This document shows positions 478 to 50,424 of a DNA stretch of 51,754 nucleotides, piece after piece. A program made the position numbers and the translations under genes. The stretch lies in IMG/VR virus record IMGVR_UViG_2861038214_000004; one strand, 5' to 3'. Within the stretch, counting starts at the first letter, position 1. Every line of letters starts with the position of its first letter. This stretch comes from a virus. Taxonomy: Duplodnaviria; Heunggongvirae; Uroviricota; Caudoviricetes. The notes under the pieces were generated by a model, which did no database searches, was not told the origin of the DNA, and saw nothing but the letters and a program-made list of their open reading frames with translations.

Positions 478-566
478 TCACTCTGCCAGATGGCGCAATG
501 CCATCTGGTATCACTTAAAGGTATTAAAAACAACTTTTTGTCTTTTTACCTTCCCGTTTCGCTCAA

Positions 567-581
567 GTTAGTATAAAAAAG
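567..581. repeat. attR: att common core on the attR side: TTAGTATAAAAAAGC, reverse complement of lambda core GCTTTTTTATACTAA
   Basis: Exact 15-bp core; host-type sequence (cttgagcgaaacgg in rc) on the ybhB side and phage P-arm sequence on the other; identical core repeated at 50410..50424. Confidence 0.85.
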
Positions 582-725
582 CTGAACGCGAAACAGCAAA
601 AGCCAATAATATCAATGTGTTAAAATACATTTAGTCTAAAAAATAGACTGCATGATACTACAAAACACAACATATCCAGTCACTATGAATCAACTACTTA
701 GATGGTATTAGTGACCTGTAACAGA
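582..725. other. attP P-arm portion of attR with Int arm-type site motif
   Basis: Sequence resembles the reverse complement of the lambda P arm, including CAGTCACTAT arm-type motif; central part diverged. Confidence 0.55.
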
Positions 726-728
726 GCA

Positions 729-768
729 TTAGCGCAAGGTGATTTTTGTCTTCTTGCGCTAATTTTTT
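729..768 (+). terminator. tI/sib-like intrinsic terminator just beyond the P arm
   Basis: 10-bp perfect stem ttagcgcaag / cttgcgctaa with 14-nt loop followed by TTTTTT; position matches where int-derived transcripts run across att into the b region. Confidence 0.55.
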
Positions 769-1138
769 GTCATCAAACCTGTTGTACTCCAGAGAAGCGC
801 AACGCCTCGCAATCCAGTGCAAAGCTTTGCTTGCCCCCACTACGACCTGCATAACCAGTAAGAAGATAGCAGTGATGTCAAACGACGCAGATGTCTGCTT
901 TTCTTTCACGACTCCCCCCCCTAGCATGCATACCTTTCTGTCACAACTGTGAGTTGTTCACATATTCAGGAAAACGCCTCAATTACACCTTTGCGTCGGA
1001 CCACTACTTTAAGTACCAACTGCATTATCCACACTAGTAAGCCCTGCAAGAATTTGTTATCAATAGAGATAGAACAAACACGAGCGAAACCATGATGAAA
1101 AGCATGCGATTTTCTCTCTAAACATGTTAGGAGGTTAG

Positions 1139-1981
1139 ATGGAACGATTGAGAGAACAATACCAAGAAAGAATAAACAGTGTCCTCCTTGACGGCTTTGA
1201 GAAGGAATTATTGGACTCTGCCTTTATTAATCTTTTGACACCGACCCCACTTAGGTTGAACAATTTTGCATATGCTCTACGTGAACTAACAAGGCATGTT
1301 TTACACCGGTTAGCACCAGATGATGAGCTTCAGCAATGCCAATGGTTTTCGCCTGATCAGACATCATCAACAGGAATTACTCGAAAACATCGCATTAAAT
1401 TTGCGATTCAAGGAGGGCTTTCTGATTTCTATGTAACGAAAAAACTTTGCATTGATGAGATAGATAAGGTGTCAAGCGAATTGATTGCTATCATCAATCG
1501 TCTAAGTGGATTTACACATATAGAAGAAGCAACATTCAAAAGCTCAATCGAAAATACTGAAAGAACCGCAGATGAATGTCTTTCAGCAACTCTTGACTTT
1601 GTTAACAAGATTGATGAACTGAGAGCCGAAGTTGCAGATAAGCTCTTCGATGATATCAATGGAGTTCTGATCGACAGAATAAACAGCGAATCGGTTGTTG
1701 AGTTAATGGAAATATCGCCACATCAGTACATTGATGAAATAACAGCAGAAAACATTTCTGTTGTTAAAATTGGCGTAAGCTCTATGGAGATGCATGTCGA
1801 TGGGAGAATAGGAGCGACCTTAATGTACGGCTCAGCATCCGATCGGCGTAAAGGAGATGGAGCTGAAATTCCGGCCTCGTTTCCCGTATACAGTGAAATG
1901 GAAGTTCTATTTAAACAACCATTGGGCAGTGCCATTAACCTAAATCAGTTTAGCGTAGATATTTCGAGCTGGTATGAGTAA
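1139..1981 (+). CDS. hypothetical protein, 280 aa, no recognised family
   Basis: Long ORF preceded by strong RBS (taggaggttag then ATG); AT-rich; between attR and the remnant-rich b region. Confidence 0.6.
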   Translation: MERLREQYQERINSVLLDGFEKELLDSAFINLLTPTPLRLNNFAYALRELTRHVLHRLAPDDELQQCQWFSPDQTSSTGITRKHRIKFAIQGGLSDFYVTKKLCIDEIDKVSSELIAIINRLSGFTHIEEATFKSSIENTERTADECLSATLDFVNKIDELRAEVADKLFDDINGVLIDRINSESVVELMEISPHQYIDEITAENISVVKIGVSSMEMHVDGRIGATLMYGSASDRRKGDGAEIPASFPVYSEMEVLFKQPLGSAINLNQFSVDISSWYE

Positions 1982-2036
1982 GCCTCCTAACAAGACTAAG
2001 CACTGCGAAGATTTTTCCATTACGCCTTTGCCTCCA

Positions 2037-2270
2037 CTACAAAGCCGCGCATGCTAGCGGCGTTATCAACGTCAGTTTCTGGCACAGGGTTGCTGTTGCA
2101 GCCCTGACAAACTTAGAGTTCTCTAACGCGTAATCGAATTCAATGCCCAGATAACGGACTGTGCTTTCCTGTTTCTTATAACCCAACAGAAGTTGGATTG
2201 TAAGTATCCCGCTTAAACGGACCATTTGGTCTTTGTTCCACGGTGACGTGTTCATACTCAAATCTCCCAC
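2037..2270 (-). pseudogene. tyrosine recombinase C-terminal fragment (remnant)
   Basis: Translation contains LTIQLLLGYKKQESTVRYLGIE resembling the C-terminal LLGH...Y box of Xer/integrase-type recombinases; N-terminal catalytic region absent; GTG start lies inside an inverted repeat. Confidence 0.4.
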
Positions 2271-2290
2271 ATTGCAGGAGATTTGAGTAT
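2254..2290. repeat. perfect 14-bp inverted repeat (atactcaaatctcc / ggagatttgagtat) with 9-bp spacer
   Basis: Read directly from sequence; no flanking T-run on either strand, so not a typical intrinsic terminator. Confidence 0.6.
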
Positions 2291-2481
2291 GGTTGTCCCT
2301 TATGAGCGAAGAACGGACTGAGTAATTCAGGCCGTTAGCGACACTATGGCATCATTAGCAACCAACTAGGAGTTGGTAATAGATGAGTTAATTAATTGAT
2401 TAAAAACCGACGATTTTACTAGATTACGGGAAGAAGAAAGGCCGCTGGTACGGCCTCCCAGAGACTGGTCTATTGTTATGC

Positions 2482-2679
2482 TTAGAAACGCTTTTCTATC
2501 TCTTTTTCTCTTTCGTTTATTGCATCGTCAATGATTTTTTTTGCTGAATTAATTTGTGGTGTTTTTTCTGGTAATACATCTTCAAGATCTTTGGCAACTT
2601 TCTTTAATTTATCGATTTCTTTAGTTAAATCAGTTACAGATTTATCCGCTATTGACTTTGTCATTTTTCCATATTCCAT
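2482..2679 (-). CDS. small hypothetical charged/coiled-coil-like protein, 65 aa
   Basis: ORF only; no clear RBS; lies between two recombinase fragments. Confidence 0.25.
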   Translation of the reverse strand: MEYGKMTKSIADKSVTDLTKEIDKLKKVAKDLEDVLPEKTPQINSAKKIIDDAINEREKEIEKRF

Positions 2680-2873
2680 TCAATTTATTTATCAATCAGT
2701 TACCCGTAAACCTTATCATGGATTCCAATTATCGACAGCTGGGATTTTTACTTTCTTGATCTGCCCCCGGCGAATGACATATCCCCATTAACCAATGTCC
2801 GCTCCTAGCACTTAGTAGACATTAATAGATTGTAAGCGTTCCCGTCATGTAGCGGTCACCGATTGGTGACGAA

Positions 2874-3233
2874 TTGAAGCGGATCATTGATGAAAGTCGC
2901 AATAACGTGGCCAGCCCATTTATCGTTCACCAGATCCCGGAACGGCAGGTTAAACGCAGCAAAGAAGTTTCTCATCCCACTCAAGTTGCACCAGACTATT
3001 TGAGTCGGTCGTTTTCAGCTACGCGTGACAAGCTGGGTTTATATGACAAACGGCCGATGGATGAAAGGCCAACCTTTCACGAAATTCGCGCCTTAGCAGC
3101 ACATCTTTTTGATCAGCAGGGCATCGATCCACAAGGACGAATGGCACACAGCGATGCGAAATCAACTAAAATCTACACGCAAAACCATATCGACTGGGTT
3201 GTAGTTCCACATGGAGAAATTAAAGCCAGCTAG
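2874..3233 (+). pseudogene. lambda-Int-family integrase C-terminal fragment
   Basis: C-terminal ~60 aa (PTFHEIRALAAHLF...KIYTQ) align by eye with lambda Int C-terminus (PTFHELRSLSARLY...ASQY); no N-terminal or core-binding domains upstream. Confidence 0.6.
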
Positions 3234-3340
3234 CACCAAGTAAGGCATAGAATTTTATTAACCAAGGAGCATATGACCAGTAATTAATTCTTACCGGAAA
3301 GTTAGCCCTGCTAAAATTAATATTAACAAATAAAAAAATA

Positions 3341-3363
3341 GGGGCAAATATTTATATTTGCCC
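3341..3363. terminator. palindromic hairpin flanked by A/T runs; likely bidirectional terminator ending the NTase-2TM operon
   Basis: gggcaaatat..atatttgccc 10-bp stem; T-run follows on minus strand immediately after the 2TM gene stop. Confidence 0.5.
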
Positions 3364-3374
3364 TCGCAACATAT

Positions 3375-3956
3375 TTATCTTCTTTTCAGTTCCTTGGGAA
3401 GAAAAGCATCTATTTCTTCTTCAGAAAATGTTAAATCTTCTTTGTTTTTTAATGCGTCCTGTGCTTTTTTATAAGCTTCAAATGTTGTACTAGGAGAGCC
3501 TGAATACACTGAATGTAAACTCTCGAGTAACGAATCCCGCTCTGACTGCAATTGCTCGATTGGTTTTTCACCCATTGCTAAGTCTGTAAGCAATGATAAA
3601 TACTTTTCTCGGATTAACCAGATCTCATTTGCAGCCTGCTTATGTTTTTGCGCCAACTCACCAAGGTCATAATCTTTGGTATAAGCGTTAAGAATGAGAA
3701 GCAGTGTTGAAACAACAATCCCAACCCCCGTGCCTACTTCACCCGCGCCGAAAAAAGTTGCTAGAAAGCCTCCAGTAGTTAAGGCGGAGAGAATTATTTG
3801 CCAAAACTTTATAGAAGATAGTCGAGATAGGAGAATGTCTGAGCATTTTTCATGCGTCTTATGTGAGTAAACGACCCGACCATAACACTCTCTGATCTGC
3901 CCTTCTAAAACCCTTCTAGATTCAGGTGTATCCTTAGTCTGGAAATGTTGATCCAT
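3375..3956 (-). CDS. two-transmembrane-helix protein, SLATT-like candidate effector
   Basis: Two adjacent hydrophobic helices (FWQIILSALTTGGFLATFF and VGIVVSTLLLILNAY) followed by a charged helical tail; start chosen at internal ATG with GGGAG RBS (ORF track start 4013); overlaps upstream NTase gene by 23 nt. Confidence 0.6.
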   Translation of the reverse strand: MDQHFQTKDTPESRRVLEGQIRECYGRVVYSHKTHEKCSDILLSRLSSIKFWQIILSALTTGGFLATFFGAGEVGTGVGIVVSTLLLILNAYTKDYDLGELAQKHKQAANEIWLIREKYLSLLTDLAMGEKPIEQLQSERDSLLESLHSVYSGSPSTTFEAYKKAQDALKNKEDLTFSEEEIDAFLPKELKRR

Positions 3957-4815
3957 AAATCTCCCGCCATTTTTGCTTAGCCGACCATTCGCGTTTTGGG
4001 GTCGCCATTTCATGCTCTATAGCTTCGAGTGAAATGTTATAGCACCGTTTTGCTTTATATTGGAAAAGCCCTTTACCATAGACATACTGACCACTTCCTG
4101 GCGCTTTCCAATACTCCTTACTCGTATCTTGATCAGCCATCCATTTGAAGAAATCACGACTCATCAAATCGTAGTAAAGATACGACTTATCTCTATGCGC
4201 CCAATTTTCAATGAATTGATACGCAAGCGTATCAATGAGTAAACCACTTATAGGTACATCCCATTTACGCTTCCAAGCTCTTGCCATTCTACAAAGTTGC
4301 ACCAAATTGTTATTGGTAATGTTATTTCTTAACCTCATTGCAGAAATTTCTGGCTTTGGATTTGTAATCCTCCAACGGCCACCACCGTTCGCATCAGGAA
4401 ATGTGTAACTATCACTAACATTGAGGAAAGCTGGAACGACTTCAAATGTAATTCCATCATTGAACGGTACAAGGATCACTTGACCGTCACCTCTAATACT
4501 AGTGGTAGCATAGGTTTTTTCAATAGATCTCTTAACCGCTTGAAGCAATGCTGACTGCCCATTTCCTAAGTAGCTATTGTATTTTTGATACTCGGAATAT
4601 GGTAGCTGAAAAATCATATCCAGATCGCTCAAGCCTTGCGTAGCTGTGTTCCGACCATATGATCCAACGTAGAGACTATGAGAAGTATCAGAACTGCTAT
4701 CCCAAAAATCCGTATTTAAACGCTTCGTTATATTCCTATATCTAGTTGAAATTGTTCCACCATCTTTTACAGTAAGATTGGAGCAAAATCCGCAAAACCA
4801 CTCAGCTAAACCCAT
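3934..4815 (-). CDS. Pol-beta-superfamily nucleotidyltransferase, SMODS/CD-NTase-like
   Basis: Motif VGSYGRNTATQGLSDLDMIF fits the GS...DxD active site of minimal/SMODS nucleotidyltransferases; ATG at 4815 with AAGGAA RBS (track start 4821 is TTG). Confidence 0.7.
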   Translation of the reverse strand: MGLAEWFCGFCSNLTVKDGGTISTRYRNITKRLNTDFWDSSSDTSHSLYVGSYGRNTATQGLSDLDMIFQLPYSEYQKYNSYLGNGQSALLQAVKRSIEKTYATTSIRGDGQVILVPFNDGITFEVVPAFLNVSDSYTFPDANGGGRWRITNPKPEISAMRLRNNITNNNLVQLCRMARAWKRKWDVPISGLLIDTLAYQFIENWAHRDKSYLYYDLMSRDFFKWMADQDTSKEYWKAPGSGQYVYGKGLFQYKAKRCYNISLEAIEHEMATPKREWSAKQKWREIYGSTFPD

Positions 4816-5108
4816 GCTCAATTCCTTTTCTAAAATCTAATGAAAAATTCAAGGGCGCATGTTCCATGCATCATTGATAACTTTTTTCAGTCAGCTGGAG
4901 TAACATAATTGATACTAACTAGCTGTTTCTTCAAGTGAGTAACCTACTTTAGCATCAAGGTATTATACCTACCAAGCATGGGGAGAAACCACCACTTAAG
5001 CCATTGAAGTATATAGAGCAGATTTTGTTGAAAAAGCACTGTTTGTTTATACATATGAATAGTGCTTTTAACCAGCAATAGCGCGGCTCTCAGCGTTTTA
5101 CAAGCAGT

Positions 5109-5156
5109 GTCATGGGGTGTCGGGGATCGGAAGTTCAAATCCTCTCGTGCCGACCA
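5109..5156 (+). tRNA. partial (pseudo) tRNA-Pro: 3' ~48 nt only, resembling proM; not a functional tRNA gene
   Basis: GTCATGGGGTGTCGGGGaTCGGAaGTTCAAATCCTCTCGTGCCGACCA matches the 3' portion of E. coli proM from recall with 2 mismatches; the 5' half of the tRNA is absent. Confidence 0.7.
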
Positions 5157-5169
5157 AAAAGATTATATA

Positions 5170-5196
5170 AACCAGCCTGTTATTGCTGGTTTTTTA
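5170..5196 (+). terminator. intrinsic terminator following the tRNA fragment
   Basis: aaccagc / gctggtt stem with 8-nt loop followed by TTTTTT. Confidence 0.6.
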
Positions 5197-5675
5197 TGCC
5201 TACCTTCCTGGTAGGGAAGCTATGGGGAATTACTGGGGAATCCCCCCCTTTACCTGCTCCCATTAAACTAACATAGCACGATGTAAGCAACTTCCGCTTC
5301 TGGCACATAGCAGGCCTAGAGACAGTGGCGTAAAGTCATGGAGGATAGGTGGGAGGAGGTAAAAATCCTCTCATACAAAAATACGTAAAATCGATAACAG
5401 CTTGAAATCATTCAATACTCGCACTATCGGAAGTTCACCAGCCAACCGCAGCACGTCCTGCATACGTCGTGTCTGCGGTTTTTCTTTTTCGCTTACATTG
5501 TGTCTGGTTCTTCCGGCCACTCAATATCAGGTGCAGTTGATGTATCAACACGGTTCAGCAACACCCGATACTTTTTCCATGCGGCCAGTAACGCTTTCTC
5601 TTCCTCCGTTGCGATTTCCAGCTCAACAACAGTCTGAACGTACCGGGAACAGCCTCCTTCAGAGCTTGAAGGATA

Positions 5676-8600
5676 TCAATGTTCGCTTCCTGTTAACTGC
5701 CGGACAAGTGCAACCAGTTCGCTTACCTGATTTTCCAGAGTGCTGATCCGGGTGCCTGCTGTTGCCAGATTTTGACGTAGCGTTGTGTTTTCCTCTTCCA
5801 GCGCGGTAACGCGATCATCTGTTTCACGGGCGACCTGAACAAGTAAACCCGTCACGGCGGCGTAGTCAACATTAAGATAGCGCGTTTCTTCGCGTAGCTC
5901 GTTGCCGTCAACGGTCGGGCCTTGCAACTCTTCACCGTAATGGATGAATGAACCAACGGCCTCCGGGATGGCCTCTTCAACTTCCTGGGCTATAACCCCG
6001 GCGCAATGTGCCCCATTCTCCTTGAGCGTGTACGTGTATCCATTAATTTTGCGGATTGCGTCAGTCGCGTTATCGATAATCTCGATATTTTCTTTCAGTC
6101 TGCGGTCTGATGACTGATTCAGTGTGGTGCAGTTAACACTTCCGTTTACAGTAAGGTTTTGCCCGTCTGTTGTTTTTTGCGCATAAAACAGATACGCAGC
6201 AGACGTGCCAACCTCAAAAACGTTTTGTCGAGTACTGGAACCCCACACCCTGATACTAACTGGTAGTTCTGAATTACCTGAATTAAGTAAAGCAAAACGA
6301 TTGCCAGTCCCTGTTTGTTTTCTAATTACTAAATCGGCAGTTGAGTTAACCTCATCTTTGTTGATGGTTAGCGCCTGCGCTGTAGCACCGTTAACAGTGC
6401 CACTTAGTAGTTGAACCGCTCCATCATCGCCATTTAACAGCACTTGAGCGCTGCTTCTGTGGTTTTTCAGGAACAACATTTTGCCTGTGCTTTCTGATGT
6501 GCCTACCGACCACGCCGAATTGGTTCCAGTGCTATCAACACCACGAACGGTACAATTCATGCTGCCATAATCTGACGTACTTCCAAGCACATCAATCCGC
6601 CCGCCACCTAATTTTGATGGAGTCGTCGAGGTTAACGACCTGACGGTTACATCCTGATTCCATCCGGAAACAACAACCTGACTCCACGCTGTCCAGTTTC
6701 CATTAACAACAAAGCGAACGTATATACGTTTTGTGTCGCTGTTAATCAGCGTTTGCATGTTCGCATAATCTGAATCCCTAACCTTACGAGTCGATTCAAC
6801 ACGGAGCAAAAAGTTACCTGTTACGCCGTCAGGCTTGTTGGTGATATTTGCACCACCTGCAGAGGATGGACAAATATAGTATTTAACTGCCCCGGCATCT
6901 GACTTGATGATGGTCAGGTTGTTAAGATTAACCGTCTGGCCGTCAATGTTTTCCGGCTCGATGGCTCCTGCTATCCCGGCACTGAACGTAGCAACGGCTG
7001 AAAACGCTGTCGTACCTTTGAAAGCCAGTTGACCACCAATCGTTAATCCCTTGTCGAGTTTCGCTTGCGTGATCAATTTGCTGTTTTGTTTCTGATCAGG
7101 ACTCTCACCAAAAGCCAGATCCCCATTAGTATCAATTCCAAGATACTTTGGGTTCATGTTGTCTAACTTAAACCCAATGGACACATTTTCAGAAGAACCA
7201 GAACGCGTTAAAACCAACGGCGTGTGCTGTACTCCATAGATGCTTAGCGTAGTTGCCGATGAGTCAGTGTCGGTATTTGCAATCTCAATCGTTCTGCTTT
7301 TAATTTTATACGCTACTGTGAGATCACGGACTTCAACCCTCCCGTCGTGACGAACAACAAGATCCCCTCCTGATGTCCCCCCTGCTGTCTTTGCCCTGAT
7401 GCGAACTTCGCCAAGCGAATCAGTGTTAGGACCAGCATAGATTATGCCGCGCTCTGTGTTATCGCCAGTATAAAACCGCAAAGCGGTGACTCCACTGTCT
7501 GCCCGCAGGAAGACTGACGGTGTACCTTTTTTGATTGTCAAGTCACCGGTCATTGTATCGCCGGTTTTTTTTACCTGCGCATCGTTCGTTACGTTGCCAA
7601 GTCCAACATCCGATTTCGACGGCTTGTTTGCCGAGCCGTATAGCTCATTGACGCTAAAAGTCCCGTTGTTAAGCCGGGCATCGTTGCCGGCATAGATCTT
7701 AATCTTCGCGGTTGAGTAGTCGATATTGATCGCTGACCACGTATCGCCGCACCGCGAGAATATACCAGAACCGTGGCTATAAATGGTCGCCGTGCTTCCG
7801 GTCGGCTTATCACCGCGCCAGAAATGACCACCTTTGTCACGCAGAGCTTTTAAGATCTCTACATCGCTCATCTTGCCGTTTGTTGATATCCCGCTACCGC
7901 CAAGACCGAAAGCGCCTGTAAGCATCGCATTTTCAAGGCCCAAATCTGCTTTAGTCGGCTTGTTTAACTGGTCGTAAATCCTTACAACGGGGCTTTCAAC
8001 ATATCCAGAAGGCGCGGCGGTTTGCTTAACAAATCCGTCTGGGATGTATAATTCTGTGCGTGCCGTCTGCGCCAGCACCGCAACCTTTGCGTCGTTAATA
8101 AACGCACCCTGGAATGCCCAAACCTCAATAAAGCCGTCACCTTTAACCAGGCCGTAACGCATCTGGTTGTTATCGGTCAGCCCGGTTGACCCTAAGCGGC
8201 GTATACTCAGATGACGAGAAACATTATCCGCACTAAGCAAAGAAGGCAGACCGCGCGCCGAGATCTCGATAAAGTCAATGTTTCCGTAAGGGGAGCCGTA
8301 GTTACCAGCGTTAGTAACCATTAGCGTTACATGACTTCTGCTGGTTCCAGGATCGGAAAGTTTCGCGATCTTGATGTAAAGAGACTCACTAGCAGTAACA
8401 ACAGGCCAATCGTATTGCGTCATCGGGCTGACGAGTCCCCCGACCTTGTCGAGATATTCTTTCGCCTTGTTCTCTGACGCTTTAGCGTTGGTTTCGCTGA
8501 CCTTTGCTGCTGACTCACTATTTTTCGCGTTGGTTTCTGATTTTTTGGCTGCTGTCGCGGAATTTGCCGATGCAGTTTGTGAGTCTGCTGCCGCCTGTGC

Positions 8601-9452
8601 GCTGTTATCCGCATTCGTCTCAGACGTTTTTGCGGCCTTCGCGGAATTTCCTGCCGCCGTTGCCGAGGAAGCTGCACTGCCGGCGCTCGAGGCTGCGCTC
8701 GTTTCTGATGATTTTGCCGCCACTTTTGAAGCCGACGCATCCCGGGCTGAGGTGGCAGCTTCTGACGCTTTCGTGGTCGCGGTGGATGCAGAAGTGGCCG
8801 CAGATTTTTGTGATGCTGCGGCATTCGTTTCTGACGTTTTCGCTGCACCGGCACTGGTGGCTGCCGCGCTTTTTGAAGACTCTGCAGCGGCAGCACTTTT
8901 TGATGCTTCAGTGGCCTTTGCTGATGCCGTTCCTGCGCTGGAAGACGCTGACTGAGCCGACGAAGCGGCCTGTCCGGCTGACGTGCTGGCTGCACGTGCT
9001 GAGCCTGCAGCATCAGTCGCATGGGTTGCCGCCTCACGGGCTGATGTGCTGGCATCGCTGGCTGACTTCTTCGCGGCTGCTGTGTTCTGCGCCACTGCGG
9101 ACGCGTTACGCGCCACCTCTTCCACCATCAGTTCAAAGCGGCGCAGTGCCTCCGGACGGACATCATCCTCCGTCATGGCACCGAGAAAATCATTCAGCGT
9201 ACCCGGTTGTGAGTCTTCATACACGGTGATGGTCCCGGCATGCGATGGCGGGAAGCCTTCCACCAACAGAATAACGCTGTACTGACCGTACTCAACGTCC
9301 ATGCTGTAACGCCCGGCTTCATCCGGATTTTCTGAGGCCACCGTGTTCGCCACCACCGTGGTGCTGTTACGTTTTGCTTTCAGCTGGATTGTGCAGTTCT
9401 GTACCGGTTTACCTGCGCCGTCTTTCAGTACACCTGAAATCTTTACTGCCAT
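5676..9452 (-). CDS. stf: side tail fibre protein Stf with Ala/Ser-rich shaft and C-terminal intramolecular-chaperone (endosialidase-type) domain
   Basis: N-terminal ~330 aa near-identical to lambda Stf (MAVKISGVLKDG...); C-terminal region contains SDRRLKENI...YTY chaperone-type motif; start set at MAVKISG (track start 9458). Confidence 0.85.
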   Translation of the reverse strand: MAVKISGVLKDGAGKPVQNCTIQLKAKRNSTTVVANTVASENPDEAGRYSMDVEYGQYSVILLVEGFPPSHAGTITVYEDSQPGTLNDFLGAMTEDDVRPEALRRFELMVEEVARNASAVAQNTAAAKKSASDASTSAREAATHATDAAGSARAASTSAGQAASSAQSASSSAGTASAKATEASKSAAAAESSKSAAATSAGAAKTSETNAAASQKSAATSASTATTKASEAATSARDASASKVAAKSSETSAASSAGSAASSATAAGNSAKAAKTSETNADNSAQAAADSQTASANSATAAKKSETNAKNSESAAKVSETNAKASENKAKEYLDKVGGLVSPMTQYDWPVVTASESLYIKIAKLSDPGTSRSHVTLMVTNAGNYGSPYGNIDFIEISARGLPSLLSADNVSRHLSIRRLGSTGLTDNNQMRYGLVKGDGFIEVWAFQGAFINDAKVAVLAQTARTELYIPDGFVKQTAAPSGYVESPVVRIYDQLNKPTKADLGLENAMLTGAFGLGGSGISTNGKMSDVEILKALRDKGGHFWRGDKPTGSTATIYSHGSGIFSRCGDTWSAINIDYSTAKIKIYAGNDARLNNGTFSVNELYGSANKPSKSDVGLGNVTNDAQVKKTGDTMTGDLTIKKGTPSVFLRADSGVTALRFYTGDNTERGIIYAGPNTDSLGEVRIRAKTAGGTSGGDLVVRHDGRVEVRDLTVAYKIKSRTIEIANTDTDSSATTLSIYGVQHTPLVLTRSGSSENVSIGFKLDNMNPKYLGIDTNGDLAFGESPDQKQNSKLITQAKLDKGLTIGGQLAFKGTTAFSAVATFSAGIAGAIEPENIDGQTVNLNNLTIIKSDAGAVKYYICPSSAGGANITNKPDGVTGNFLLRVESTRKVRDSDYANMQTLINSDTKRIYVRFVVNGNWTAWSQVVVSGWNQDVTVRSLTSTTPSKLGGGRIDVLGSTSDYGSMNCTVRGVDSTGTNSAWSVGTSESTGKMLFLKNHRSSAQVLLNGDDGAVQLLSGTVNGATAQALTINKDEVNSTADLVIRKQTGTGNRFALLNSGNSELPVSIRVWGSSTRQNVFEVGTSAAYLFYAQKTTDGQNLTVNGSVNCTTLNQSSDRRLKENIEIIDNATDAIRKINGYTYTLKENGAHCAGVIAQEVEEAIPEAVGSFIHYGEELQGPTVDGNELREETRYLNVDYAAVTGLLVQVARETDDRVTALEEENTTLRQNLATAGTRISTLENQVSELVALVRQLTGSEH

Positions 9453-9461
9453 ATTCACCCC

Positions 9462-49069: not shown

Positions 49070-49288
49070 ATGTACTTGACACTTCAGGAGTGGAACGCAC
49101 GCCAACGACGCCCAAGAAGCCTTGAAACAGTTCGTCGATGGGTACGCGAGTGCAGGATATTCCCTCCTCCGGTTAAGGATGGAAGAGAGTATCTGTTCCA
49201 CGAATCAGCGGTAAAGGTTGACTTAAATCGACCAGTAACAGGTAGCCTTTTGAAGAGGATCAGAAATGGGAAGAAGGCGAAGTCATGA
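49070..49288 (+). CDS. xis: excisionase Xis
   Basis: 72 aa, matches lambda Xis. Confidence 0.95.
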   Translation: MYLTLQEWNARQRRPRSLETVRRWVRECRIFPPPVKDGREYLFHESAVKVDLNRPVTGSLLKRIRNGKKAKS

Positions 49289-50336
49289 GCGCCGGGATTT
49301 ACCCCCTAACCTTTATATAAGAAACAATGGATATTACTGCTACAGGGACCCAAGGACGGGTAAAGAGTTTGGATTAGGCCGAGACAGGCGAATCGCAATC
49401 ACTGAAGCTATACAGGCCAACATTGAGTTATTTTCAGGACACAAACACAAGCCTCTGACAGCGAGAATCAACAGTGATAATTCCGTTACGTTACATTCAT
49501 GGCTTGATCGCTACGAAAAAATCCTGGCCAGCAGAGGAATCAAGCAGAAGACACTCATAAATTACATGAGCAAAATTAAAGCAATAAGGAGGGGTCTGCC
49601 TGATGCTCCACTTGAAGACATCACCACAAAAGAAATTGCGGCAATGCTCAATGGATACATAGACGAGGGCAAGGCGGCGTCAGCCAAGTTAATCAGATCA
49701 ACACTGAGCGATGCATTCCGAGAGGCAATAGCTGAAGGCCATATAACAACAAACCCTGTCGCTGCCACTCGCGCAGCAAAATCAGAGGTAAGGAGATCAA
49801 GACTTACGGCTGACGAATACCTGAAAATTTATCAAGCAGCAGAATCATCACCATGTTGGCTCAGACTTGCAATGGAACTGGCTGTTGTTACCGGGCAGCG
49901 AGTTGGTGATTTATGCGAAATGAAGTGGTCTGATATCGTAGATGGATATCTTTATGTCGAGCAAAGCAAAACAGGCGTAAAAATTGCCATCCCAACAACA
50001 TTGCATGTTGATGCTCTCGGGATATCAATGAAGGAAACACTTGATAAATGCAAAAAGATTCTTGGCGGAGAAACCATAATTGCATCTACTCGTCGTGAAC
50101 CGCTTTCATCCGGCACAGTATCAAGGTATTTTATGCGCGCACGAAAAGCATCAGGTCTTTCCTTCGAAGGGGATCCGCCTACCTTTCACGAGTTGCGCAG
50201 TTTGTCTGCAAGACTCTATGAGAAGCAGATAAGCGATAAGTTTGCTCAACATCTTCTCGGGCATAAGTCGGACACCATGGCATCACAGTATCGTGATGAC
50301 AGAGGCAGGGAGTGGGACAAAATTGAAATCAAATAA
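49266..50336 (+). CDS. int: integrase Int (tyrosine recombinase)
   Basis: 356 aa, matches lambda Int; 3' end 73 bp from the att core. Confidence 0.95.
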   Translation: MGRRRSHERRDLPPNLYIRNNGYYCYRDPRTGKEFGLGRDRRIAITEAIQANIELFSGHKHKPLTARINSDNSVTLHSWLDRYEKILASRGIKQKTLINYMSKIKAIRRGLPDAPLEDITTKEIAAMLNGYIDEGKAASAKLIRSTLSDAFREAIAEGHITTNPVAATRAAKSEVRRSRLTADEYLKIYQAAESSPCWLRLAMELAVVTGQRVGDLCEMKWSDIVDGYLYVEQSKTGVKIAIPTTLHVDALGISMKETLDKCKKILGGETIIASTRREPLSSGTVSRYFMRARKASGLSFEGDPPTFHELRSLSARLYEKQISDKFAQHLLGHKSDTMASQYRDDRGREWDKIEIK

Positions 50337-50409: not shown

Positions 50410-50424
50410 TTAGTATAAAAAAGC
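50410..50424. repeat. attL: att common core on the attL side (TTAGTATAAAAAAGC)
   Basis: Exact 15-bp core identical to 567..581, with P'-arm on the int side and host sequence on the ybhC side. Confidence 0.85.

What the first reader, a model, noticed from the sequence alone, without database searches (positions are those of the whole stretch)
2037..5196. b region is a mosaic of integrative-element debris: two recombinase 3' fragments, a tRNA-Pro 3' fragment and its terminator
Seen in sequence: (a) a minus-strand ORF fragment with a tyrosine-recombinase C-terminal box (2037..2270); (b) a plus-strand fragment resembling the last ~60 aa of lambda Int (2874..3233) with no upstream integrase body; (c) a 48-nt stretch matching the 3' part of tRNA-Pro (proM-like) at 5109..5156 followed by an intrinsic terminator. 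Established knowledge: tRNA-targeting integrases duplicate the 3' end of the tRNA at the distal att site of genomic islands. Inference: the phage b region captured the distal end of a tRNA-Pro-integrated island (bringing the nucleotidyltransferase/2TM module with it) and has decayed through deletions. This may mark a recurrent cargo entry point next to the tail fibre gene.
Basis: partly seen in the sequence, partly recalled or inferred. Interest (0 to 1): 0.55.

Follow-up and report, generated by a model that had tools for sequence, protein, structure and literature searches.

The report
Fossil phage integration module carrying CBASS
The end of this lambda-like E. coli prophage holds the dead remains of an older integration system (a truncated integrase, its complete tRNA-Pro attachment site and a still-intact anti-phage CBASS operon between them), which is an ordinary kind of phage mosaicism, but it travels as a cassette bounded by short conserved palindromic sites that deserve a closer look.

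Summary
All three observations are real. The interpretation needs correcting. Window 2846-5250 is not the far end of a tRNA-Pro island. It is a fossil integration module of a proL-integrating lambdoid phage.

- **Truncated integrase:** only the last ~129 codons remain. They are 83-87% identical to intact 392-aa integrases of proL prophages.
- **Cargo:** an intact SMODS + SLATT (type I CBASS) operon with its own terminator.
- **Attachment site:** a complete attP. Its core is the 3' 48 nt of proL (anticodon GGG, not proM). Both arms are phage-type and carry TGGGGAA arm-site repeats, as in the free phage Eeyore.

An Enterobacter prophage at proL holds the living version: intact int, SLATT, SMODS, att. 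In relatives the int-attP gap holds at least 7 unrelated cargo types.

The other "recombinase fragment" (2067-2317) is an internally deleted 200-aa tyrosine recombinase gene.

The prophage itself uses an intact lambda int/xis/att (cores 568-582 and 50410-50424).

The 3-kb block 2303-5311 recurs at 99.6% identity in Qin-like prophages. There it sits in a slot bounded by 24-bp palindromic "L" and "R" sites. These sites flank hundreds of unrelated cassettes in phages, plasmids and islands, sometimes beside that small recombinase.

The finding itself is ordinary. The cassette system is the interesting lead.

The parts
568..582 (.). lambda-type att core (attR end of the resident prophage). The second copy is at 50410-50424, next to intact lambda-type xis (49070-49288) and int (49266-50336).
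   Evidence: Exact 15-mer found twice, 0 expected by chance. ORFs. ybhB and bioA flank.
1139..1981 (+). Orphan gene for a pPIWI-associated-nuclease-like protein (280 aa). No Argonaute partner is present in the b region.
   Evidence: Pfam pP_pnuc_1 2e-39 and pP_pnuc_2 2e-25. PADLOC Aga_Nuclease 1e-72.
2067..2317 (-). Internally deleted gene for a 200-aa catalytic-domain-only tyrosine recombinase. The 3' piece is 2067-2198 and the 5' piece plus upstream region is 2228-2317. A perfect 15-bp-arm palindrome lies at 2253-2291.
   Evidence: blastn against CFT073 L094. tblastn against plasmids. Palindrome I5. PGAP 'integrase partial'.
2295..2318 (+). L-type 24-bp site (GTCCCTTAT-GAGCGA-AGAACGGAC). It marks the left end of the 3-kb block shared with Qin-like prophages.
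2482..2679 (-). 65-aa coiled-coil ORF of unknown function with its own terminator-like hairpin. It forms a small L...R cassette.
   Evidence: ORF list. Annotated as hypothetical in all copies. No family hit.
2797..2820 (+). R-like 24-bp site (GTCCGCTCC-TAGCAC-TTAGTAGAC), 26 nt upstream of the integrase truncation point.
   Evidence: 6 mismatches to the R consensus; shuffled windows give 0-3 hits at 7 or fewer mismatches.
2846..3233 (+). int': the 3' third (codons ~265-392) of a proL-type, lambda-family integrase gene. It has one frameshift near its 5' edge and an open 119-codon frame from 2874.
3342..3363 (-). Intrinsic terminator of the CBASS operon (9-bp stem followed by a T run).
3375..3956 (-). 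SLATT_4 two-transmembrane effector gene.
   Evidence: Pfam SLATT_4 6e-74. PADLOC 2TM Effector 1e-84. PGAP coordinates.
3934..4815 (-). SMODS / CD-NTase-type oligonucleotide cyclase gene.
   Evidence: Pfam SMODS 2e-50. PADLOC Cyclase 7e-144, full length. NCBIfam CBASS_cyclase_b 9e-34, below cutoff.
4978..5108 (+). int-proximal arm of the fossil attP. One arm-type repeat (TGGGGAG) lies at 4979-4985.
   Evidence: 74% identical to phage Eeyore attP, 73% to L004, 80% to L012.
5109..5156 (+). attP core, equal to the 3' 48 nt of tRNA-Pro(GGG) proL, from the anticodon loop to CCA. It has two G-to-A changes.
5157..5250 (+). Distal arm of the fossil attP. It holds a terminator hairpin (5170-5191 plus T run) and three 11-bp-spaced arm-type repeats (5212, 5223, 5234; TAGGGAA / TGGGGAA / TGGGGAA).
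   Evidence: 78% identical to Eeyore attP. Unlike the host DNA after proL in E. coli (L004) and in Enterobacter (L012).
5252..5315 (+). R-end module with an R-type site at 5292-5315 (TTCCGCTTC-TGGCAC-ATAGCAGGC). It marks the right end of the 3-kb block and is 89% identical to the end of the P2-EC31 Z-region insert.
5335..5372 (+). Second, more decayed tRNA-Pro-like stretch (71% to 5109-5146). Its T arm reads GGAGG-TAAAAAT-CCTCT.
   Evidence: Repeat family D3. Not followed further.
5380..5700 (.). Remnants colinear with the proL-integrating lambdoid prophage. 5380-5481 matches the DinI-gene flank. 5493-5627 (minus strand) is a tail fibre assembly gene remnant. The 3' end of the side tail fibre gene follows.

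Best explanation
Window ~2846-5250 is the fossil of a complete integration module from a lambdoid phage that integrated into the proL tRNA gene.

In the living form the order is: tail fibre genes - (DinI etc.) - attP - cargo - int. The attP core is a copy of the 3' half of proL, followed by the phage's own terminator. Integration therefore rebuilds a working tRNA gene. The flanking TGGGGAA repeats are the arm sites for the integrase's N-terminal arm-binding domain.

A type I CBASS operon (SMODS cyclase + SLATT 2TM effector, with its own terminator) sits as cargo in the gap between int and attP. That gap is a variable slot in this phage family.

In the lineage of this window, the first two thirds of int were lost where other DNA was joined on: a 65-aa ORF cassette and a small-recombinase remnant. 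The phage now integrates with an intact lambda int/xis/att module at the bio-ybhB site. So the old attP and int' are inert scars, while the CBASS operon is probably still an active abortive-infection defence for the lysogen.

Shown: homology, order, both phage arms, the living counterpart, and the variability of the slot.

Inferred: the direction of events, that CBASS is active, and that the 3-kb block (2303-5311) moves between prophage positions by recombination at its 24-bp L and R end sites.
For: - int' is 83-87% identical over 119 aa to intact 392-aa integrases that carry a lambda Arm-DNA-binding domain.
- L012 (Enterobacter, proL locus next to ecotin) has intact int - SLATT - SMODS - tRNA-Pro core. 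Its DNA is 78% identical to window 2859-4852 and 4974-5197.
- Free phage Eeyore has int followed directly by an attP that aligns with both window arms.
- The E. coli prophage at proL is lambdoid, and its tail-fibre end abuts the rebuilt proL.
- Window 5380-5700 stays colinear with that prophage.
- The int-attP gap is empty in 7 relatives. In the others it holds at least 6 further unrelated cargo types.
- 168 of 5,426 E. coli genomes carry this integrase family. 122 have it full length, and about 46 have only the 3' 376 nt, always with this block.
- The resident lambda module is intact.
- The SMODS and SLATT matches are full length.
Against: - No intact-int version with this cargo was found in E. 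coli itself.
- The CBASS promoter was not identified by the consensus scan.
- The int' 5' breakpoint coincides within about 5-8 nt with that of an independent, more decayed int' in L004/L120. A simple one-off truncation does not explain this.
- An attP-like junction could also arise between tandem prophages.
- Function of CBASS, and inertness of the fossil attP, are untested.
Confidence: 0.8

Rival explanations
1. First reader's model. The b region captured the distal, integrase-far end of a genomic island inserted in a tRNA-Pro gene, so the tRNA piece is the displaced host 3' duplicate with its host terminator.
For: A tRNA 3' fragment plus terminator is what an island's far end looks like. 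The terminator hairpin resembles host proL terminators at about 83%.
Against: - Beyond the hairpin, the flank carries three phage arm-type repeats shared with Eeyore attP, with the phage side of the rebuilt proL in L006, with L005 and with a Gifsy-2 relic. It is unlike E. coli or Enterobacter host DNA.
- The other flank is the phage int-side arm.
- The integrase fragment lies on the near side, not the far side.
Confidence: 0.05
2. The attP-like junction was formed in the chromosome, between two tandem proL prophages or by integration of a proL phage into another prophage. A deletion later fused it to a lambda-type prophage.
For: - Tandem lysogens carry a POP'-type junction (established knowledge of lambda dilysogens).
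- L004/L120 show int - DUF2971 - int' - cargo - att, the kind of product expected from collapse of tandem elements.
Against: - The window keeps the single-genome order tail fibre - DinI flank - attP - cargo - int'. No second set of phage genes lies between.
- The resident prophage sits at att-lambda or near yegL, not at proL.
Confidence: 0.1
3. The int' fragment and/or the attP relic are kept because they still work. For example, the relic could be a landing pad for incoming proL-type integrases, or the fragment a decoy that interferes with them.
For: - The 119-codon int' frame is open and at least 99% conserved in about 46 genomes.
- The core differs from proL at only 2 of 48 positions.
- The breakpoint is shared with L004's int'.
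Against: - The copies are so similar that conservation carries no information.
- The L004/L120 int' is frameshifted and decayed.
- No promoter or expression evidence exists.
- One core change breaks a T-stem pair.
Confidence: 0.05

Closest known systems
Lambda-family integration module (heterobivalent Int with arm-type sites; attP next to int, downstream of the tail fibre / b region)
   Same: - The gene order is tail fibre - attP - int.
- The integrase of the relatives has the lambda Arm-DNA-binding domain.
- There are repeated arm-type sites on both arms, three of them in tandem on one arm.
   Different: - The core is the 3' half of a tRNA gene, not the lambda 15-mer.
- 1.7 kb of cargo lies between int and attP.
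- The integrase here is truncated, so the module is dead.
tRNA-gene-targeting phage attP sites (P22, P4, HP1 type; sublocation classes of Williams 2002, from my own knowledge)
   Same: The identity block runs from the anticodon loop to the CCA end. The phage supplies the replacement 3' half plus a terminator.
   Different: This copy is not at a prophage end. It is an internal relic, with two substitutions in the core.
Type I CBASS with a 2TM effector (SMODS + SLATT; Burroughs 2015 and Millman 2020, from my own knowledge; PADLOC models)
   Same: It is a two-gene operon of cyclase and 2TM effector with no Cap2/Cap3 genes, and it matches the PADLOC cyclase and effector models over their full length.
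   Different: Nothing unusual in the genes. What is unusual is only the location, inside a fossil int-attP gap. The cyclase is 60-86% identical across many phyla.
P2-like phage Z/fun ('TO') variable region with inserts flanked by inverted repeats (GenBank AJ512677.1; Nilsson et al. 2004, Mol Biol Evol 21:1; paper not readable here)
   Same: The right end of the window block (5252-5315) is 89% identical to the end of the P2-EC31 insert. The same L and R 24-bp sites flank both.
   Different: The phage family and the slot are different. Here the cassette contains a whole fossil integration module.
Integron cassettes and pdif (XerCD) modules
   Same: - Arrays of single-gene cassettes are separated by short imperfect palindromes in a fixed orientation.
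- A tyrosine recombinase gene is sometimes embedded in the array.
- Breakpoints fall at the site centres.
   Different: - The site sequences are unrelated to attC, attI or dif.
- Each cassette has two site types (L and R) with different 6-bp centres.
- The recombinase is a 200-aa catalytic-domain-only protein and is not IntI or XerCD.
- No activity has been shown.

Membership tests
attP of a tRNA-targeting lambda-family integrase | Core identical to the 3' part of a tRNA gene | tested here: met
   46/48 to the proL 3' part in L006. 96% over 52 nt in about all E. coli genomes.
attP of a tRNA-targeting lambda-family integrase | Phage-specific arms on both sides with repeated arm-type binding sites | tested here: met
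   Arms are 74% and 78% identical to the attP of free phage Eeyore. TGGGGAA repeats are conserved in the window, Eeyore, L004, L006, L005 and Gifsy-2. Binding itself was not tested.
attP of a tRNA-targeting lambda-family integrase | Cognate intact integrase gene adjacent | tested here: not met
   Only codons ~265-392 remain. It is intact in L012, L004 and Eeyore. The site is therefore filed as a fossil, not as a working attP.
attP of a tRNA-targeting lambda-family integrase | Recombines with attB (proL) when Int is supplied | not testable with these tools
   Needs an in vivo or in vitro recombination assay.
   The downstream DNA beyond the hairpin matches phage attP arms. It does not match the host flanks of E. 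coli (L004) or Enterobacter (L012).
Tyrosine recombinase (fragment b, 2846-3233) | C-terminal catalytic region with the HxxR, H and Y motifs, homologous to known integrases | tested here: met
   83-87% identical to intact integrases. PTFHEIR...AHSD...KIY is present. Pfam hit 3e-4, below the gathering score because the fragment is short.
Tyrosine recombinase (fragment a, 2067-2317) | Homology to a recombinase catalytic domain | tested here: met
   DNA is 79-90% identical to both ends of the CFT073 200-aa recombinase gene. That gene hits Pfam Phage_integrase at 5e-19. The remnant alone gives no profile hit. The LLGH box reads LLGY.
Functional tRNA-Pro gene | Complete cloverleaf detected by a tRNA finder | tested here: not met
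   ARAGORN finds 0 genes in the window. Rfam finds no tRNA hit in 500-5800.
Type I CBASS | CD-NTase/SMODS cyclase plus an effector in one operon, without Cap2/Cap3 | tested here: met
   PADLOC Cyclase 7e-144 and 2TM Effector 1e-84. The genes overlap by 23 nt, and a terminator follows. The GS...DLD motif is visible in the ORF. Anti-phage activity was not tested.
Site-specific cassette system (integron-like / pdif-like) for the L and R sites | Short inverted-arm sites in fixed orientation flanking unrelated cargo, with exchange breakpoints at the site centre | tested here: met
   284/287 sites are co-oriented. 59 cassettes fall into 37 cargo clusters. Backbone-side arms stay constant and cargo-side arms co-vary with the cargo.
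Site-specific cassette system (integron-like / pdif-like) for the L and R sites | A dedicated recombinase shown to act on the sites | not testable with these tools
   A 200-aa recombinase gene lies between an R and an L site in 4 independent contexts, but in only 2 of 120 viral loci. This is association only.

The most novel reading that the evidence does not exclude
The debris sits inside a cassette-exchange system of Enterobacterales that has been little described, if at all.

- **Sites:** two heterospecific 24-bp core-type sites, L (GTCCGCTnT-GAGCGA-nnAGCGGAC) and R (kTCCGCTyy-TGGCAC-arAGCGGAC).
- **Cargo:** the sites bound cassettes with very diverse content, including many defence systems.
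- **Hosts:** lambdoid and P2-like prophages, plasmids and pathogenicity islands.
- **Candidate enzyme:** a 200-aa catalytic-domain-only tyrosine recombinase, whose remnant lies at 2067-2317, may swap cassettes by L x L plus R x R recombination.

This would explain how the 3-kb block, with its fossil attP and CBASS, moved between the lambda b region and the Qin-type hokD-DUF977 slot.
Probability: 0.35. Interest if true: 0.75.

Novelty: new member of a known kind. Interest (0 to 1): 0.42.

Why it matters
The finding as stated is a clean, dated example of how temperate phages change integration specificity. A new int/att module is added and the old one is left as a scar. The old attP survives complete, and a defence operon (CBASS) outlives the module that carried it.

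It also shows that the int-attP gap of proL-integrating lambdoid phages is a defence and cargo hotspot. That is useful for mining new systems.

The wider value lies in the by-product. The block is delimited by conserved 24-bp sites that flank hundreds of unrelated cassettes in a fixed orientation, with breakpoints at the site centres. If these are recombination sites for the neighbouring small tyrosine recombinase, they would give a mechanism for the long-noted but unexplained turnover of cargo in phage hotspots. That idea is directly testable.

Tried and rejected
- **tRNA and RNA scans.** ARAGORN and Rfam found no functional tRNA or known RNA at 5109-5196. The only Rfam hit was a sub-threshold IS009 match at 5536-5736.
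- **Profile searches on fragment (a).** Pfam, NCBIfam and PADLOC found nothing. Homology needed tblastn and blastn.
- **Living version in E. coli.** I looked for an intact int with this CBASS in E. coli. All 47 genomes with the cargo have the truncated int'. It was found only in Enterobacter.
- **Empty Qin-type slot.** I joined the two flanks as one query. No genome has them contiguous, and the smallest filling is 224 bp.
- **Other origins for the L/R motif.** It does not look like REP, ERIC, dif, cer, attC or hix sites (compared from memory only).
- **Motif in the window.** Strict searches of the window for the idealised palindrome found nothing. The window copies are degenerate and were found only with 4-8 mismatches.
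- **Literature.** Nilsson 2004 and Odegrip 2006 are not held in the library. The motif strings do not occur in the open-access text.
- **Promoter scan.** No convincing sigma-70 promoter was found for the CBASS operon.
- **Python blast.** The first two attempts failed because the locus files had not yet been synchronised.


Full report
**Setting**

The window starts in ybhB. A lambda att core lies at 568-582 and a second copy at 50410-50424. Lambda-type xis and int lie at 49070-50336, and ybhC follows. An identical stretch in E. coli GF124.3 lies between bioA-ybhB and a tail fibre gene. So the window holds a whole ~49.8-kb lambda-like prophage, read from its attR (b-region) end. The finding covers the b region, between the P arm and the side tail fibre gene (5676-9458, minus strand).

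**Checking the observation**

All three items are there.

(a) Fragment at 2037-2270:
- PGAP annotates 2106-2201 (minus strand) as a partial integrase.
- The 77-aa ORF matches plasmid site-specific integrases at 70-79% over about 46 aa, with E down to 3e-12.
- blastn against the 200-aa recombinase gene of CFT073 shows the remnant keeps both ends of the gene. Window 2067-2198 is the 3' end, and 2228-2317 is the 5' end plus upstream region. About 470 bp in the middle is missing.

(b) Fragment at 2874-3233:
- It is the C-terminus of an integrase. It is 83% identical over all 119 aa to residues 274-392 of an intact 392-aa integrase, and 87% to another.
- It is only distantly like lambda Int.
- DNA homology begins at about 2846, with one frameshift near the edge.

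(c) tRNA stretch at 5109-5160:
- It matches the 3' part of tRNA-Pro at 96% in nearly every E. coli genome.
- The gene is the GGG-anticodon tRNA next to yejM, that is proL, not proM.
- No tRNA gene is predicted in the window.
- A hairpin plus T run follows.

**What the tRNA piece is**

The decisive comparison concerns the flanks.

An E. coli lambdoid prophage integrated at proL (NZ_CP116166.1) has the following ends:
- At its int end: intact int - DUF2971 - a decayed int fragment - two genes - a flank 73-75% identical to window 4979-5108 - the tRNA 3' half - host yejO.
- At its other end: tail fibre genes, a tfa remnant, DUF4236, a DinI-like gene and then the rebuilt proL.

The DNA just after that rebuilt proL is phage DNA. 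It resembles window 5157-5250, including the hairpin and a run of GGGGAA repeats. The host DNA after the displaced 3' half does not.

The free phage Eeyore has int followed directly by an attP that aligns with the window across both arms (74% and 78%) and the core. The arms share TGGGGAA-type repeats:
- one on the int side, at window 4979;
- three on the other side, 11 bp apart, at 5212, 5223 and 5234.

The related integrases carry the lambda arm-binding domain. In Enterobacter the host flank has a similar terminator but no repeats.

Hence 4978-5250 is a complete attP (POP'). It is not a prophage-host or island-host junction.

**The module and its living counterpart**

In Enterobacter sp. RIT637 the proL locus, next to ecotin, carries a prophage that ends: intact 392-aa int - SLATT - SMODS - tRNA-Pro core - host. 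Its DNA is 78% identical to window 2859-4852 and 4974-5197. The window therefore holds the same module with int cut down to its last third.

To the right, window 5380-5481 and 5515-5700 remain colinear with the DinI flank and the tfa remnant of the proL prophage. The fossil thus sits in the canonical lambdoid order: tail fibre - attP - int.

The cargo is a standard type I CBASS pair, with full-length matches and its own terminator.

**A variable slot**

I fetched 80 IMG/VR loci that encode this integrase family. In 26 of them the tRNA core was captured, and in those the int-attP gap varies:
- It is about 130-190 nt, with no cargo, in 6 loci, as in Eeyore.
- It is 433 bp in one locus.
- It is 1.3-3.2 kb in the rest. 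The cargo types are unrelated:
  - a TPR protein plus a small protein;
  - an ImmA/IrrE-like peptidase plus an XRE regulator;
  - a 352-aa protein;
  - a 334-aa membrane protein;
  - DUF2971 (PADLOC candidate PDC-S31) plus int' plus the TPR pair.

SMODS/SLATT occurs only in L012 and the window. In E. coli, 168 of 5,426 genomes have this integrase family. 122 have it full length. About 46 have only the 3' 376 nt, always together with the CBASS block.

**The block moves**

Window 2303-5311 contains the 65-aa ORF, int', CBASS and attP. It is 99.1-99.6% identical to a segment in Qin-like prophages, where it lies between hokD and the DUF977/replication genes. The whole b region also occurs in a lambda-like prophage at another chromosomal site, near yegL.

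In the Qin-type position the block fills a slot with fixed boundaries:
- Left: ...GCTAACCTTCTA, then a 24-bp L site.
- Right: a 24-bp R site, then AACCACGCTAGC...

Other genomes have other cargo in the same slot.

The window block has the same kinds of site:
- L at 2295-2318.
- R at 5292-5315.
- A further R-like site at 2797-2820, 26 nt before the int truncation point.
- A weak R at 2071-2094.

The small-recombinase remnant therefore lies between an R and an L.

**The L/R sites (side lead)**

An exact L pattern hits at least 120 IMG/VR stretches. Across these, plus plasmid and island loci:
- 284 of 287 sites are co-oriented within their locus.
- 59 L...R cassettes fall into 37 unrelated cargo clusters, in at least 22 backbone contexts.
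- Adjacent cassettes are joined R - 15-18 nt - L.

The consensus sites are 9+6+9 bp, with shared inverted arms and different centres (GAGCGA for L, TGGCAC for R).

In the Qin-type slot, the backbone-side arms and the centres are constant, while the cargo-side arms change with the cargo. The window copy of the block keeps its cargo-side arms but has different backbone-side arms. That places the exchange points at the site centres. This is the expected pattern for site-specific recombination and is hard to obtain by ordinary homologous recombination.

A 200-aa catalytic-domain-only tyrosine recombinase gene lies between an R and an L, on the opposite strand, in four unrelated contexts:
- the window (as a remnant);
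- the CFT073 aspV island;
- a Klebsiella IncFII plasmid;
- a Pantoea megaplasmid, where 13 sites separate single-gene cassettes.

It is present in only 2 of 120 viral loci. It has no specific curated family.

GenBank AJ512677.1 (P2-EC31 Z region) annotates the same sequences as inverted repeats. The paper behind that record could not be read. The motif strings are absent from the searchable literature. I therefore treat this as a lead, not a claim of novelty.

**Verdict**

- The tRNA is proL, not proM.
- Fragment (a) is an internal deletion of a different, small recombinase.
- Fragment (b) is a proL-type integrase, not a lambda-type one.

It is debris, the CBASS came with it, and the area is a cargo hotspot. 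It is wrong on the key point: this is the phage's own complete attP with its truncated int, not the far end of an island.

As a kind of thing it is ordinary phage mosaicism, so it is a new member of a known kind.

Two points remain unexplained:
- The int' breakpoint coincides with that of an independent int' in L004/L120.
- A second, decayed tRNA-Pro-like stretch lies at 5335-5372.

Noticed in passing
window 2295-2318, 2797-2820, 5292-5315 (weak copy at 2071-2094); loci L007, L098, L099, L091, L100, L181-L300, L302, L303: Two 24-bp near-palindromic site types flank hundreds of unrelated cassettes in one fixed orientation in prophages, plasmids and islands: L (GTCCGCTnT-GAGCGA-nnAGCGGAC) and R (kTCCGCTyy-TGGCAC-arAGCGGAC). 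Exchange points fall at the site centres. Adjacent cassettes are joined R - 15-18 nt - L.
   Followed up: partly
window 2067-2317; L100 24415-25017; L302 3500-4102; L303 3500-4102: A 200-aa catalytic-domain-only tyrosine recombinase gene with no specific curated family lies between an R and an L site in four unrelated replicons. A perfect palindrome (window 2253-2291) covers its start region.
   Followed up: partly
window 1139-1981: A pPIWI-associated-nuclease-like gene (PADLOC Aga_Nuclease 1e-72) stands alone, with no Argonaute or helicase partner. It occurs only in the 34 genomes that have this b region.
   Followed up: no
window 5335-5372: A second, more decayed tRNA-Pro-like stretch (71% to 5109-5146, with the T arm preserved as GGAGG-TAAAAAT-CCTCT) lies just outside the 3-kb block. 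It may be an older att relic.
   Followed up: no
window 2846 versus L004 ~18160 and L120 ~9370: Two independent integrase 3' fragments, with different upstream DNA and different downstream cargo and only 68% DNA identity, start within about 5-8 nt of the same codon (~265). This is unexplained.
   Followed up: partly
L093 (Gifsy-2, NC_010393.1 44213-44334) and L005 20001-20086: Other prophages that do not sit at proL also carry relic tRNA-Pro cores with the phage-type arm. One is Gifsy-2, where the relic is next to sseI. The other is a prophage at ssrA, where it is next to a DinI-like gene. Fossil proL attP sites therefore recur.
   Followed up: partly
window 3934-4815; loci L011-L090: The SMODS cyclase is 60-86% identical at the protein level across very distant phyla (Chloroflexota, Planctomycetota, Poribacteria, Nitrospirota and others). 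That is unusually high conservation for a defence gene.
   Followed up: no
window 5536-5736 (minus strand): A sub-threshold Rfam IS009 match (81.5 bits against a gathering score of 117, E=6e-18) overlaps the tail fibre assembly remnant and the 3' end of the tail fibre gene.
   Followed up: no
L002 4155-5285: In strain 82.0311 an InsQ/TnpB-family gene sits between bioA and ybhB, next to the same prophage end.
   Followed up: no
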